Origin: a virus
Lineage: Duplodnaviria; Caudoviricetes
IMG/VR virus record: IMGVR_UViG_3300012007_000001
Span: 32,001 to 96,000 of that record
DNA length: 64,000 nucleotides
Direction: 5' to 3' (one strand)
How positions within the stretch are numbered: position 1 is the stretch's first letter; every line of letters begins with the position of its first letter. Position numbers and translations under genes: made by a program. This document shows positions 11,668 to 43,060 of the stretch, piece by piece. The notes under the pieces were generated by a model. That model saw only the letters and a program-made list of their open reading frames with translations. It was not told where the DNA came from and searched no databases.

Positions 11668-12336
11668 TTAGTTTGAGCCGCCCAAAGCTGTACGCAAGGC
11701 AGCTGCTATGGTGTTCCCGCTTCCTCGGCGCAATACCCTTTCGCGGTCACTCATCATCCTATCCCAATCATCGTATGTCTTAACCCTGTCAAGGTTGATT
11801 TCCCTGCTTGGGTTATAGCTTCGCATCATTGCCGACAATCCTTTTGGCAGGGTCATGGCAACGACGGGAAGGCGTGTGCGCCCATCCCAATCAGACGGTG
11901 CTAAATCGTCATCCCATTCTACTTTTCCGATGGCTTTAGCACCATATTTCGCATACATATTCTGTAATCCACCACCATAGCAATCCAGCTTTCGGCCACC
12001 CCTTGCAGAAGCAAATGCCATGATGTTGGGCATCCTTCCGCGTGTCCTGCTGAAAACGGCCTCTACATTGCCGTCACTTGTTATGGCGAGTCCTGTCTTG
12101 TGGTCTTTAGAAAGGTAATAAGCCGTGCCACTGTTACGGTTATTCCTGAACTGTTTCTTTGTATGGGTATCAACCATCCAGCCGTGCCTGTTTTTCTTCT
12201 TGGCATAGTTGATGGCGTTTTTGAAAGCCCTTGGCGTTGCACGCTCAAATTCTACGTGAGAATGCCGAATACCCTTTCTTGTTAGGGCATTCTCGACACG
12301 CTTGTTTGCTTTTTCAATATCGCTTATGTACCTGAC
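11668..12336 (-). CDS. 222-aa basic protein, possible GNAT-like fold; proposed GTC start at 12336
   Basis: frame stays open 53 codons upstream of annotated ATG 12177, back to GTC preceded by TGA; 13 nt after upstream stop; VFS..GGRKLDCY..L..MYAKYG..WDD..AP.DW. Confidence 0.65.
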   Translation of the reverse strand, partial: VRYISDIEKANKRVENALTRKGIRHSHVEFERATPRAFKNAINYAKKKNRHGWMVDTHTKKQFRNNRNSGTAYYLSKDHKTGLAITSDGNVEAVFSRTRGRMPNIMAFASARGGRKLDCYGGGLQNMYAKYGAKAIGKVEWDDDLAPSDWDGRTRLPVVAMTLPKGLSAMMRSYNPSREINLDRVKTYDDWDRMMSDRERVLRRGSGNTIAAALRTALGGSN

Positions 12337-12349
12337 TCAGCCGTTCCGA

Positions 12350-12547
12350 TTACATTGTCAAAATATCAGCCATCAATTCAGGGCTGCTATAATCCATGTC
12401 ACTATCCAGCGAATCGTCGCTTGGGCTGTCTGCCAGTTTTCTTGCCTCATCCTCTGTCAGGTAAGGCTTGCCGTTCTCCTTGATTTTGCAGAGCTCCTCA
12501 AAAAGACGCTGGCGATACTCAGCTATCTGTTCTTTTGTATGCTTCAT
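12350..12547 (-). CDS. small acidic protein
   Basis: 65 aa, directly after the promoter at 12567-12600. Confidence 0.65.
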   Translation of the reverse strand: MKHTKEQIAEYRQRLFEELCKIKENGKPYLTEDEARKLADSPSDDSLDSDMDYSSPELMADILTM

Positions 12548-12566
12548 TGTTGTTCATTTAATAGTG

Positions 12567-12600
12567 CAAAGATAAAGCAAATAAATTGATTTACCAAATA
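12567..12600 (-). promoter_or_regulatory. promoter with overlapping operator
   Basis: TTTGGTAAATCAATTTATTTGCTTTATCTTTGCA. Confidence 0.7.
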
Positions 12601-12655
12601 TTTCTCGTTATTTTTTGTTGCATATCACTTTATTTAACTCTTCCGCTAAATCAGA

Positions 12656-12693
12656 ATGGCCACCACCATCATTTTGCTGACGGCGATGGCCAT
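12656..12693 (-). terminator. 16-bp hairpin (terminator/processing site)
   Basis: ATGGCCATCGCCGTCA-GCAAAA-TGATGGTGGTGGCCAT; fully paired with G-U only on the minus-strand RNA. Confidence 0.6.
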
Positions 12694-12714
12694 GATGTCG
12701 GCTCAAGGCAACCT

Positions 12715-12969
12715 TTAGCCCTCAGAGCCTGCGGCAGCACGAAGGGCGGCAGAGCGCAAGGCTGCACCACGAACACCACGCGCACGCATAGCGGCTACGT
12801 TCTGACGTGCTTGTCGGGCGAATGCCACACGAAGGTCTTGACGACGCTGTTCACGGTTTCCCCAACCTGCACGGCCTTCCGCATAGCGGCCACCATTTGC
12901 CAGTCGGCGACTACCTGCACCGTTCACGTTTGACGTGACACCAGTGATTCGATTGATTCTGTTTCTGAC
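12715..12969 (-). CDS. 84-aa Arg/Ala/Gly-rich basic protein; proposed GTC start at 12969
   Basis: VRNRINRITGVTSNVNGAGSRR...; GTC preceded by TGA, same GCTGAGTCAG context as 12336. Confidence 0.65.
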   Translation of the reverse strand, partial: VRNRINRITGVTSNVNGAGSRRLANGGRYAEGRAGWGNREQRRQDLRVAFARQARQNVAAMRARGVRGAALRSAALRAAAGSEG

Positions 12970-13001
12970 TCAGCATTCAAATTAAAGGGTTCTACATTAT
13001 G

Positions 13002-13412
13002 TTAGTTGTCTGAATGGGCTTCCTGTTCCCCGTCGAAGATTTCACAGTTCTCCGTCTGCAATACTTCGCCGAGTTCATACTGCATCTGCGTAACATAGTA
13101 GGTCTCGCCGTTGTCAACGAATGTAAGCGGCTCACCAGTCTTTTCGTCATCCATCTGAACGACCTTAATCCCGATGACCTGTACCAGCAGGCGGGGGGCA
13201 TTCTTCTGACGGCCATTGATAAGCTGCAAGGCATCATAGCCCACAACCTCGACATCGCTTGTGCCGTCGCCGTTGTCCTTTTCCACCAAATACTGCTTGG
13301 CGTTACGCGGGTAAACAAATCGGTGCTCGACCTTCTGCTCACCCTTCAAGATTTTCTTGAAACTGTCGCGCTTGATTTGTAGCGTCAGTACATCTAATCC
13401 TTCTAAATTCAT
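13002..13412 (-). CDS. ASCH/PUA-like domain protein
   Basis: LTLQIKRDSFKKILKGEQKVEHR (GxKxxExR-like); YDALQLING. Confidence 0.75.
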   Translation of the reverse strand: MNLEGLDVLTLQIKRDSFKKILKGEQKVEHRFVYPRNAKQYLVEKDNGDGTSDVEVVGYDALQLINGRQKNAPRLLVQVIGIKVVQMDDEKTGEPLTFVDNGETYYVTQMQYELGEVLQTENCEIFDGEQEAHSDN

Positions 13413-13445
13413 TTTAATTCCGATTTAATTGTTACTATAATATTG

Positions 13446-13518
13446 TTGCGGGAGCAGGGCTCGAACCTGCGACCTCCAGTAAGTCAGACTGTTAAGCTAC
13501 CAACTGCTCCATCCCGCG
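13446..13518 (-). tRNA. initiator-type (tRNA-fMet-like) tRNA with GAC (Val) anticodon
   Basis: 73-nt cloverleaf CGCGGGA TG GAGC AGTTGGTA GCTT A ACAGT CTGACTT ACTGG AGGTC GCAGG TTCGAGC CCTGC TCCCGCA A; C1:A72, A11-U24, U37. Confidence 0.85.
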
Positions 13519-13526
13519 ATTTTCGG

Positions 13527-13534
13527 CAAAGTTA
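13527..13534 (-). promoter_or_regulatory. -7 promoter element for the tRNA/ASCH operon
   Basis: TAACTTTG 8 nt upstream of tRNA position 1. Confidence 0.6.
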
Positions 13535-33964: not shown

Positions 33965-34105
33965 TAGAGGGAGCAGGGCTCGAACCTGCGACACACACAA
34001 TCCATGTGTAACTTCATGTATGCGAGGCTGCTATTCTTGCGCTCGTATTTACAGCCATCCTCCCGTTCCATATACGGGTGTGCTAACCAACTACACCATC
34101 CCCCT
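33965..34105 (-). ncRNA. tRNA-like RNA with about 70-nt variable-region insertion (anticodon position ATG)
   Basis: acceptor AGGGGGA/TCCCTCT, D arm GTGT/GCAC, anticodon arm CCCGT-ATATGGA-ACGGG, T arm GCAGG-TTCGAGC-CCTGC. Confidence 0.7.
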
Positions 34106-42607: not shown

Positions 42608-43060
42608 TTAATACATAAATTCTTTGTTTGCTTCTATCTGCTGCTGGGCATAGATAAGAAACTCATGATTCGATGCGTCAGGCAGCGGTATTCCAATCTG
42701 TGCCGACCAGTTCATAAACCTTTCGATAGACAGGCGCATTTCGTCAACTGACAAATCGGCTGAACTGCGAAGGTACTCGACGGTCTGACCTTTCCGATTC
42801 ACGCGGGTAGATGTAAAAATATCCTTGTTGCACCTTTCCTTATAGAACCGAACCTTTGCCTCGTCAAGTCCGCAACCGTATTCACAGGCGAAGAACCCCA
42901 AAAGCACATGCAGGTATGCGTTCTGCGACAAAGTGCGCTGCGGCTTCTTCTCGACAAGTTCCACGGTGACGGTTTCTTTATTCTTTACCCGTTCAATCAT
43001 CTTCTGAACCTTTTCAATGAACTTGCTGAATTGCAAGTCATCATTAAGCCTGTATATCAT
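42608..43060 (-). CDS. NinB/Orf-like protein
   Basis: RTLSQNAYLH...RSSADL...EM...IE. Confidence 0.7.
   Translation of the reverse strand: MIYRLNDDLQFSKFIEKVQKMIERVKNKETVTVELVEKKPQRTLSQNAYLHVLLGFFACEYGCGLDEAKVRFYKERCNKDIFTSTRVNRKGQTVEYLRSSADLSVDEMRLSIERFMNWSAQIGIPLPDASNHEFLIYAQQQIEANKEFMY

What the first reader, a model, noticed from the sequence alone, without database searches (positions are those of the whole stretch)
11668..13534. Candidate private translation-initiation system: initiator-type tRNA(GAC) and GUC-started genes with extended anticodon-loop pairing
SEEN: (1) A 73-nt tRNA at 13446-13518 has a tRNA-fMet body (CGCGGGA acceptor, C1:A72 mismatch, A11-U24, A73) but anticodon loop CU-GAC-UU. 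(2) Two downstream same-strand reading frames open at the identical 10-mer GCTGA-GTC-AG, with GTC at 12969 and 12336. In both, GTC is the first codon after an in-frame TGA, so no upstream in-frame start is possible. (3) The GTC starts lie 32 and 13 nt after the preceding genes' stops; the annotated GTG/ATG starts are 14 and 53 codons further in. (4) mRNA 5'-UGAGUCAGR-3' is complementary to tRNA nt 31-39, 5'-UCUGACUUA-3' (G-U allowed), i.e. the whole loop including the abnormal U37/U38. KNOWN: C1:A72 and R11-Y24 are formylation/initiator determinants, A35, C36 and A73 are ValRS determinants, and engineered E. coli tRNA-fMet with a GAC anticodon initiates at GUC with formyl-Val. INFERENCE: the phage has a natural fVal initiator that gates translation of selected genes in the packaging region. 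The extended pairing may substitute for the missing three G-C anticodon-stem pairs and for a Shine-Dalgarno sequence, which is little used in Bacteroidota.
Basis: partly seen in the sequence, partly recalled or inferred. Interest (0 to 1): 0.97.

Follow-up and report, generated by a model that had tools for sequence, protein, structure and literature searches.

The report
Phage starter tRNA reading GUC codons
This 119-kb gut phage carries a tRNA built like the bacterial start-of-translation tRNA but with a valine anticodon. Two of its genes begin on the matching GUC codon instead of AUG, so the phage seems to have its own start codon, something known so far only from engineered systems.

Summary

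**tRNA.** The tRNA at 13446-13518 (-) has an initiator body: a C1:A72 mismatch, G2:C71, C3:G70, A11:U24 and A73. Its anticodon loop is CUGACUU.

**Start sites.** The 10-mer GCTGAGTCAG occurs exactly twice in the 119-kb genome. Each copy places GTC directly after an in-frame TGA at the head of an ORF.

**Comparative tests.**
- The 53 start-less codons of ORF 11668-12336 are conserved protein sequence.
- Sister phages whose tRNA has anticodon AAC open the same two genes on GTT.
- Those AAC phages also open their major head gene on GTT, exactly where the GAC phages have ATG.
- A third lineage (GAC) has a set of small basic genes opening NGA-GTC-AGA.
- At 13 of 13 sites, -1 is A (complementary to U37) and +4 is A (complementary to U33).
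- AAC phages also encode an Fmt-like formyltransferase.

**Limits.** Pairing beyond -2..+5 is not supported. Charging, formylation and initiation were not tested here. The three G:C pairs that mark initiators are missing.

**Precedent.** I found no natural precedent in the literature. This scan already reported the same system on sister genomes.

The parts
13446..13518 (-). Initiator-type tRNA with anticodon GAC. It has C1:A72, G2:C71, C3:G70, A11:U24 and A73, loop CUGACUU with U37 U38, and an anticodon stem A.G/C-G/A-U/G-C/U-A (no three G:C pairs).
   Evidence: In 11 variants the cloverleaf is kept, with 7 pairs showing compensatory changes, and 1:72 is never paired. The body matches host Bacteroidales tRNA-fMet outside the anticodon arm.
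13527..13534 (-). TAACTTTG, a likely Bacteroidota -7 promoter box 8 nt upstream of the tRNA 5' end (inferred).
   Evidence: Read and conserved in L001. The consensus TAnnTTTG is from my own knowledge and was not tested.
13002..13412 (-). It is context only.
12965..12974 (-). Start site 1: GC-TGA-GTC-AG, with GTC at 12969-12967.
   Evidence: Identical in L001, L002 and L005. In AAC phages it reads TGA-GTT-A[A/G]A.
12715..12969 (-). ORF 1: an 84-codon Arg-rich basic protein (P0002) read from GTC. The alternative start is GTG at 12927 (70 aa).
   Evidence: The orthologue in G001 aligns from residue 1. No Pfam or PHROG family matches.
12350..12547 (-). Ordinary ATG-started 65-aa gene (P0003). It is preceded by a promoter-like TTTG...TATCTTTGCA, and its TAA lies 13 nt before start site 2, in another frame.
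12332..12341 (-). Start site 2: GC-TGA-GTC-AG, with GTC at 12336-12334.
   Evidence: Conserved in L001-L005. In AAC phages it reads TAG-CGA-GTT-AAA.
11668..12336 (-). ORF 2: a 222-codon protein (P0001, phrog_2563, GNAT-like fold) read from GTC. The first canonical start, ATG at 12177, would remove 53 conserved residues.
   Evidence: In the AF2 model residues 11-40 have pLDDT above 90 and residues 6-48 form a helix-strand-helix that is part of the fold. Foldseek hits are GNAT acetyltransferases.

Best explanation
The phage encodes a reprogrammed initiator tRNA. Its body is that of the Bacteroidales tRNA-fMet, with the 1:72 mismatch and the acceptor and D-stem features that E. coli formyltransferase uses. 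Its anticodon arm has been replaced, so it reads GUC.

Inferred steps. Host ValRS charges it with valine through A35, C36 and A73. Formyltransferase formylates it. It then enters the 30S P site and starts translation at GUC codons that lie in the context GA-GUC-AR.

In this genome two genes upstream of the packaging genes depend on it. One is the 222-aa GNAT-like protein (11668-12336), for which the case is strong. The other is the 84-aa Arg-rich protein (12715-12969), for which it is weaker. These proteins can be made only when the phage tRNA is present.

The flanking A(-1) and A(+4) probably pair with U37 and U33, extending the codon-anticodon helix. G(-2) and R(+5) may pair with U38 and Y32.

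Shown here: the anatomy, conservation of coding sequence up to the GTC, and anticodon/first-codon co-variation across clades. Inferred: valine charging, formylation, P-site entry, the role of extended pairing, and the biological purpose (a temporal or conditional gate on late proteins).
For: **tRNA.**
- Initiator features are conserved across 3 clades and at least 11 sequence variants. Position 72 varies (A, U or C) but never pairs with C1. A11:U24 and A73 are invariant, and 7 pairs show compensatory changes.
- The body resembles host tRNA-fMet.
- The nearest matches in cultured phages are tRNA-Met genes.

**Start sites.**
- ORF 2 has the longest start-less leader in the genome.
- That leader is homologous to the N-termini of ATG-started homologues, evolves under codon-position bias of 3/6/18, and folds as part of the domain.
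- No frameshift or readthrough route exists: there are several in-frame TGAs, and the upstream gene's stop comes first.

**Co-variation.**
- GAC tRNA goes with GTC (window, L001, L002, L005). AAC tRNA goes with GTT (L007-L014, L064), in both genes.
- In five AAC phages the major head gene opens [T/A]GA-GTT-AA exactly where G000 and G005 have ATG.
- In G005 (GAC), 7 small basic paralogues open NGA-GTC-A[G/A]A. Two of them have no canonical start for 86 and 92 codons, and three have GGAGG 6-7 nt upstream.
- In 29 tRNA-less loci the same domain sits in ORFs with ordinary starts.

**Context.**
- At the 13 sites, -2 is G, -1 is A and +4 is A every time. ATG genes of the same phages prefer T at -1, in 43-66% of cases.
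- Pairing between -1 and position 37 has been demonstrated experimentally in E. coli (PMC10018350).

**Feasibility.**
- Engineered i-tRNA(GAC) initiates at GUC with fVal (PMC2268962).
- Engineered i-tRNA(AAC) initiates only at GUU with Val/fVal, limited by ValRS and Fmt.
- AAC phages carry an Fmt-like gene.
Against: - There are no experimental data. Charging, formylation and N-termini are unknown.
- The three consecutive G:C pairs of the anticodon stem, a hallmark of initiators, are absent (A:U / G:C / U:A). An E. coli initiator mutated there is non-functional in wild-type cells (PMC6393288).
- U37 is highly unusual for any tRNA.
- For ORF 1, a canonical GTG (ATG in G001) at codon 15 is conserved and could be the real start.
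- In G005 the ORF 2 homologue has an ATG four codons after its in-frame GTC.
- G(-2) is invariant although A would pair better with U38, so part of the motif may serve something other than pairing.
- The co-variation rests on few independent events, about four.
- This genome itself has no Fmt-like gene.
Confidence: 0.8

Rival explanations
1. The motif is a DNA operator or an RNA processing or regulatory site. The ORFs start at the downstream canonical codons, and the tRNA is merely an odd elongator tRNA-Val that supplements GUC/GUU decoding.
For: CTGAGTCAG is nearly palindromic. ORF 1 has a conserved GTG/ATG at codon 15. Gene callers chose the downstream starts (P0005 and P0006). The 8-mer is not enriched.
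Against: - The sequence between the motif and the canonical start of ORF 2 is conserved protein, integral to the predicted fold.
- In AAC phages the GTT aligns codon-for-codon with the ATG of head-protein orthologues.
- The motif is always in frame, on the sense strand, and at the first conserved codon.
- The palindrome is lost in the AAC version (GAGTTAAA), while complementarity to the anticodon is kept.
- An elongator would not keep a 1:72 mismatch through changes of base 72, nor A11:U24.
Confidence: 0.05
2. The start-less ORFs are real but are expressed by another route: termination-reinitiation or near-cognate initiation by host tRNA-fMet, a frameshift, or stop-codon readthrough. The tRNA has an unrelated role, for example as a decoy or replacement against host nucleases that cut tRNA anticodon loops.
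For: Both window sites lie close behind an upstream stop (13 and 32 nt) and directly after UGA. These phages do use frameshifting elsewhere, in the start-less tail-chaperone-like ORFs. Phage tRNAs with altered anticodon loops that evade defence nucleases are described (PMC10264068, listed).
Against: - A frameshift from the upstream genes is geometrically impossible, because their stops precede the in-frame TGA.
- Readthrough would need several stops to be read (TGA, TGA and TGA in the window; TGA and TAG in G001).
- GUC and GUU each differ from AUG at two positions, so they are poor near-cognates. Reinitiation also does not explain why the first codon tracks the phage anticodon across clades.
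- Some G005 sites follow a promoter, not an upstream ORF.
Confidence: 0.07
3. The apparent start-less genes are artefacts: pseudogenes, assembly errors or an alternative genetic code.
For: The data are metagenome assemblies, and no isolate of this phage is known.
Against: - The same arrangement recurs in independent assemblies from many studies and in cultured Muribaculaceae genomes.
- The leader is under purifying selection.
- Other genes of the genome have normal starts and stops under code 11.
Confidence: 0.02

Closest known systems
Bacterial initiator tRNA-fMet (here that of Bacteroidales/Muribaculaceae hosts)
   Same: Acceptor stem CGCGGG. with C1 unpaired to base 72, G2:C71, C3:G70, the A11:U24 D stem, variable loop AGGUC, a near-identical T arm, and A73.
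   Different: The anticodon is GAC (AAC in the sister clade) instead of CAU. The loop ends U37 U38 instead of A37 A38. The GGG/CCC anticodon stem is replaced by A-U/G-C/U-A. The D loop has one extra nucleotide.
Engineered anticodon mutants of E. coli initiator tRNA: G34C36 (GAC) reading GUC, and i-tRNA(AAC) reading GUU
   Same: They use the same two anticodons and the same two start codons. They initiate with valine or formyl-valine and are orthogonal to AUG (PMC2268962; 10.1101/2021.05.25.445580 and 10.64898/2025.12.21.695813).
   Different: Those are laboratory constructs that keep the three G:C pairs and A37. This one is natural, virus-encoded and conserved in several phage clades. It lacks the G:C pairs, has U37 U38 and a fixed GA..A mRNA context, and in one clade is accompanied by a phage Fmt-like gene.
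Extended (quadruplet) codon-anticodon pairing in initiation: mRNA -1 with tRNA-fMet position 37
   Same: Here -1 is A at 13 of 13 GUY sites opposite U37. ATG genes of the same phages prefer U at -1, opposite the host's A37. The effect of this pair was shown by compensatory A37 mutants (PMC10018350).
   Different: In E. coli the effect is a modest modulation. Here the context is invariant and may extend to -2, +4 and +5. No measurement exists for this system.
Phage-encoded suppressor tRNAs used for stop-codon recoding in gut phages (from my own knowledge, not checked here)
   Same: A virus carries its own tRNA that changes the meaning of a codon for a subset of, mostly late, genes, so those genes are readable only during infection.
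   Different: Those act in elongation at stop codons. This one would act at initiation on a sense codon.

Membership tests
Bacterial initiator tRNA (tRNA-fMet type) | No Watson-Crick pair between positions 1 and 72 | tested here: met
   C1:A72 in the window. It is C:A, C:U or C:C in all 11 variants and is never paired.
Bacterial initiator tRNA (tRNA-fMet type) | Purine11:pyrimidine24 (A11:U24) in the D stem, and G2:C71 and C3:G70 in the acceptor stem (formylation determinants in E. coli; from my own knowledge) | tested here: met
   A11:U24 and G2:C71 are invariant. C3:G70 is kept in 10 variants and is U.G in 1.
Bacterial initiator tRNA (tRNA-fMet type) | Three consecutive G:C pairs, 29:41, 30:40 and 31:39 | tested here: not met
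   The window has A29:U41, G30:C40 and U31:A39. Relatives have A:U, G:C (C:G in L006) and U.G. The host tRNA-fMet has GGG/CCC.
Bacterial initiator tRNA (tRNA-fMet type) | CAU anticodon read at AUG/GUG/UUG | tested here: not met
   The anticodon is GAC.
Bacterial initiator tRNA (tRNA-fMet type) | Formylated aminoacyl form, bound by IF2 and placed in the P site | not testable with these tools
   The only indirect evidence is that conserved ORFs open on the cognate codon and that AAC phages encode an Fmt-like protein.
Elongator tRNA-Val | A35 and C36 in the anticodon and A73 (ValRS identity in E. coli; from my own knowledge) | tested here: met
   Anticodon GAC/AAC and A73 in all variants.
Elongator tRNA-Val | A paired 1:72 and a purine at position 37, as in ordinary elongators | tested here: not met
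   1:72 is mismatched and position 37 is U in all variants.
Orthogonal initiator tRNA / private start-codon pair (engineered class) | Genes whose first codon is Watson-Crick complementary to the altered anticodon and that have no usable canonical start | tested here: met
   ORF 2 of the window. The head gene and ORF 2 of the AAC phages. G005 ORFs at 42689 and 47044.
Orthogonal initiator tRNA / private start-codon pair (engineered class) | Expression of those genes depends on the tRNA | not testable with these tools
   This needs a reporter or a knockout. There is only an association: start-less forms occur only in loci that carry the tRNA.

The most novel reading that the evidence does not exclude
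Bacteroidota phages carry a family of reprogrammed initiator tRNAs that select start sites by pairing most of the anticodon loop (tRNA 32-38) with a 7-nt mRNA box, GA-GUY-AR. This would replace both the Shine-Dalgarno contact and the three-G:C/IF3 checkpoint. In one clade a dedicated phage formyltransferase supports the tRNA and the major capsid gene depends on it. Related initiator-like tRNAs with other anticodons (a GCU form in a Flavobacteriaceae genome) may define further private start codons.
Probability: 0.25. Interest if true: 0.97.

Novelty: new variant of a known kind. Interest (0 to 1): 0.9.

Why it matters
As far as I know, all cellular translation initiation uses an initiator tRNA with a CAU anticodon. 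Initiators reading other codons have existed only as laboratory constructs since about 1990.

A natural, virus-encoded initiator that reads GUC or GUU would be the first natural reassignment of the start codon. It would be a new way for a virus to keep certain proteins, in sister phages even the major capsid protein, untranslatable unless its own tRNA is present.

Practical consequences:
- Gene finders mis-call or truncate these genes, as in the database entries P0005 and P0006.
- The natural tRNA, its GA..A context and the linked Fmt-like enzyme are ready-made parts for orthogonal translation and phage biocontainment. Engineered versions of these are limited by poor charging and formylation.
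- The tRNA works without the three G:C pairs, which makes the long-debated role of that checkpoint, and of extended codon-anticodon pairing, directly testable.
- Prophages with the AAC form sit in cultured Muribaculaceae strains.

Tried and rejected
- **Motif enrichment.** TGAGTCAG occurs 2 times against 2.07 expected. GAGTTARA counts in AAC phages are no higher than reversed controls. Counts alone are uninformative.
- **G.U-tolerant 8-mer scoring.** This gave 183 hits, mostly inside genes or on the antisense strand, and was useless.
- **Other start-less candidates.** The + strand TGA-GTC ORF at window 28901 is the shadow of a - strand gene. Several apparent conserved leaders in the three-genome comparison were BLAST over-extensions before ordinary ATGs. 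One set is a probable tail-chaperone frameshift.
- **Frameshift or readthrough into ORF 1 or ORF 2.** Excluded by the stop geometry.
- **Exact search for a host tRNA with the window's D and T arms.** No hits.
- **RNA-library contigs.** They span the whole locus, but contigs in RNA libraries may be DNA and show no ends, so there is no verdict on transcription. Of 105 strain differences, 40 are listed, and none of those 40 falls in the motifs or the anticodon loop.
- **Phage translation genes.** No phage peptide deformylase and no class-I aminoacyl-tRNA synthetase in G000, G001 or G005. No Fmt-like gene in G000 or G005.
- **Pukyongia initiator-like tRNA(GCU).** No convincing AGC-start ORF in 80 kb.
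- **Pfam on both GUC-start proteins.** No family found.
- **Literature.** No natural non-CAU initiator was found in four searches.
Full report
**What is in the window.** The window is bases 32001-96000 of a complete 119,237-base phage record with direct terminal repeats. Its large terminase is closest to Bacteroides phage BS-TP2 (64.6%) among named phages. The phage DNA turns up in sheep and bovine gut metagenomes.

ARAGORN and Rfam both find a 73-nt tRNA at 13446-13518 on the - strand. Read directly, it has:
- acceptor stem CGCGGGA/UCCCGCA with C1 opposite A72;
- G2:C71 and C3:G70;
- D stem with A11:U24;
- A73;
- anticodon loop C-U-GAC-U-U, closed by the stem A.G, C-G, A-U, G-C, U-A.

Downstream on the same strand lie:
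- an ATG-started gene (13412-13002);
- GC-TGA-GTC-AG at 12974-12965, opening an 84-codon Arg-rich ORF;
- a promoter-like box and a 65-aa ATG gene (12547-12350);
- GC-TGA-GTC-AG again at 12341-12332, opening a 222-codon ORF that runs to 11668;
- the PAPS-reductase-like, ParB-like and terminase genes.

Every number in the finding checks out.

**Is it more than chance?** Not by counting. The 8-mer is found as often as in shuffles. The two copies are, however, the only ones in the genome. Both are in frame, and both sit at the first codon after a stop.

ORF 2 has the longest stretch without ATG/GTG/TTG of any gene in the genome. That stretch is protein-coding:
- phrog_2563 matches from residue 33.
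- Fifteen homologues align across it, and several that start with ATG begin within about eight residues of the GTC.
- Against an 85%-identical relative (L001), the 53 codons show 16 synonymous and 7 non-synonymous codon changes. The differences are distributed 3/6/18 over codon positions, and a 3-nt in-frame insertion lies right behind the GTC.
- An AlphaFold model (pLDDT 82) has residues 11-40 above 90. Residues 6-48 form a helix-strand-helix inside a GNAT-like fold. Starting at Met54 would therefore cut the domain.

A frameshift from the upstream gene cannot reach this frame, because that gene's TAA precedes the in-frame TGA. Readthrough would have to pass three TGAs in 13 codons.

**The co-variation test.** Homologues of ORF 2 in IMG/VR gave 53 loci. 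Ten of them carry the same odd tRNA a few kb upstream: two with GAC (L005, L006) and eight with AAC (L007-L014).

A pattern scan for the tRNA body with U37 U38 found 16 viral contigs that carry the GAC or AAC tRNA. The same scan on bacterial genomes found the AAC form in five assemblies, among them Lepagella muris, Paramuribaculum intestinale and a Muribaculaceae isolate.

Across 11 distinct variants the cloverleaf is kept:
- 7 pairs show compensatory changes.
- A11:U24 and A73 are invariant.
- Base 72 changes between A, U and C but never pairs with C1.
- Outside the anticodon arm the sequence is that of the hosts' tRNA-fMet. The host tRNA itself has C1:C72 or C1:U72, a GGG/CCC stem and a CUCAUAA loop.

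In every GAC phage of the window's clade, both ORFs open TGA-GTC-AG. In every AAC phage the Arg-rich ORF opens TGA-GTT-A[A/G]A, and the ORF 2 homologue opens TAG-CGA-GTT-AAA with its first ATG 28 codons later.

I fetched two full relatives and compared all stop-to-stop ORFs of the three genomes. Apart from a probable tail-chaperone frameshift, the genuine start-less conserved N-termini are these two genes plus one more. That third gene is the major head protein (phrog_29) of the AAC phage. It opens TGA-GTT-AAA-CAG-TCA-TTC-TAT-TTC, whereas the GAC phages have ATG-CAA-CAG-TCA-CTT-TAT-TTC and ATG-GAA-AAA-TCG-CTT-TAT-TTT. Four further AAC phages show the same GTT.

The third lineage (G005: GAC tRNA, 129 kb) has seven small basic paralogues opening NGA-GTC-A[G/A]A. 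Two have no canonical start for 86 and 92 of about 110 codons. Three have GGAGG 6-7 nt upstream. Two follow a promoter-like box.

In 29 loci without the tRNA, the ORF 2 domain lies in ORFs with ordinary starts, usually as the C-terminal part of a large protein.

**Extended pairing.** Over 13 sites in three genomes, -2 is G, -1 is A and +4 is A without exception. Position +5 is G nine times, A three times and C once.

ATG genes of the same phages have T at -1 in 43-66% of cases, A at -1 in 16-34%, and G at -2 in 8-19%. So the -1 preference flips from U to A just as position 37 flips from A (host) to U (phage). A -1:37 pair that raises initiation has been shown with compensatory A37 mutants in E. 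coli (PMC10018350).

C32 tRNAs always face G at +5, while U32 tRNAs face G or A. This is compatible with pairing but has no discriminating power.

Position -3 is T, C or A irrespective of A39/G39, and +6 can be T opposite U31. The 9-nt pairing of the finding therefore shrinks to at most seven. The invariant G at -2, where A would pair better with U38, is unexplained.

**Mechanism and its weak points.** Feasibility is established by engineered analogues:
- The G34C36 (GAC) mutant of E. coli tRNA-fMet is charged by ValRS, formylated, and initiates at GUC (PMC2268962).
- i-tRNA(AAC) initiates exclusively at GUU with Val/fVal. It is limited by ValRS charging and Fmt formylation.

In that light it is notable that all five sufficiently complete AAC phages encode an Fmt-like protein. 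It has the Formyl_trans_N and Formyl_trans_C domains. It scores 189 bits on TIGR00460 fmt, just under the 201.5 cut-off, and far above ArnA or PurN. The window's genome and G005 have none.

The main difficulty is the missing three G:C pairs. An E. coli initiator mutated there is formylated but non-functional in initiation in wild-type cells (PMC6393288). Extended pairing, Bacteroidota ribosomes or a phage factor might compensate, but which of these applies, if any, is open.

For ORF 1, the conserved GTG/ATG at codon 15 remains a possible start.

**Novelty.** Four literature searches found engineered systems only. This scan has already reported the same system on sister genomes. I reached the same reading before looking at those notes, and I tested their main claims here.

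I file the feature as a new natural variant of the initiator tRNA. It fails two defining features of tRNA-fMet (the CAU anticodon and the three G:C pairs), so it works like an initiator without being a standard member.

Noticed in passing
window 33965-34105 (-): A fourth tRNA-like gene is seen by Rfam (43.5 bits) but missed by ARAGORN. It has acceptor AGGGGGA/UCCCUCU with a G3.U70 pair, anticodon loop AUAUGGA (anticodon AUG), an insertion of about 67 nt in the variable region, and the same T arm as the GAC tRNA.
   Followed up: partly
L078:10065-11378 (-) = G001:50065-51378; also G002, G003, G004, G006: AAC-clade phages encode a 437-aa Fmt-like methionyl-tRNA formyltransferase homologue with both the N and C domains and a 90-aa N-terminal extension. 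It is absent from the window's genome and from G005.
   Followed up: partly
L097:1428-1501 (+) (MAG Pukyongia sp., G012:C6 about 73.4 kb): An initiator-like tRNA (C1:U72 mismatch, A73, U37 U38) with anticodon GCU, which would read AGC. No convincing AGC-start ORF was found in 80 kb around it.
   Followed up: partly
L075:3893-3970 (+) (IMGVR_UViG_3300010882_000184): A phage initiator-like tRNA that keeps the CAU anticodon but has loop GUCAUUU (U37 U38) and stem UGAGG/CCUCA, so it also lacks the three G:C pairs.
   Followed up: no
L093, L094, L095, L096, L098: The AAC tRNA lies in bacterial assemblies, including cultured Lepagella muris NM04_E33 and Paramuribaculum intestinale DSM 100749. The system therefore sits in prophages of culturable hosts.
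   Followed up: partly
window 11668-11690 and 12715-12740; G005 small ORFs: The GUY-started proteins share basic composition (R+K 16-23%). Their C-termini end in small residues and Gly (..GSN..GSEG..SNG..ISG), possibly a common targeting or processing signal.
   Followed up: no
window 11668-12336 (-): The phrog_2563 protein is predicted to have a GNAT acetyltransferase-like fold (Foldseek E 3e-3 to 3e-2, prob 0.9-1.0). In tRNA-less phages the same domain is the C-terminal part of proteins of up to about 2000 residues.
   Followed up: partly
G000:22199 (-) (outside the window), G001:65225 (+), G005:19149 (-): A conserved ORF without its own start lies after a 135-160-aa gene downstream of the head genes. 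It looks like a tail-assembly-chaperone programmed frameshift.
   Followed up: no
window, all ATG genes of at least 150 aa: ATG genes of this phage have T at -1 in 54% of cases and A at -3 in 60%. This start context fits -1:A37 pairing with the host initiator tRNA.
   Followed up: partly
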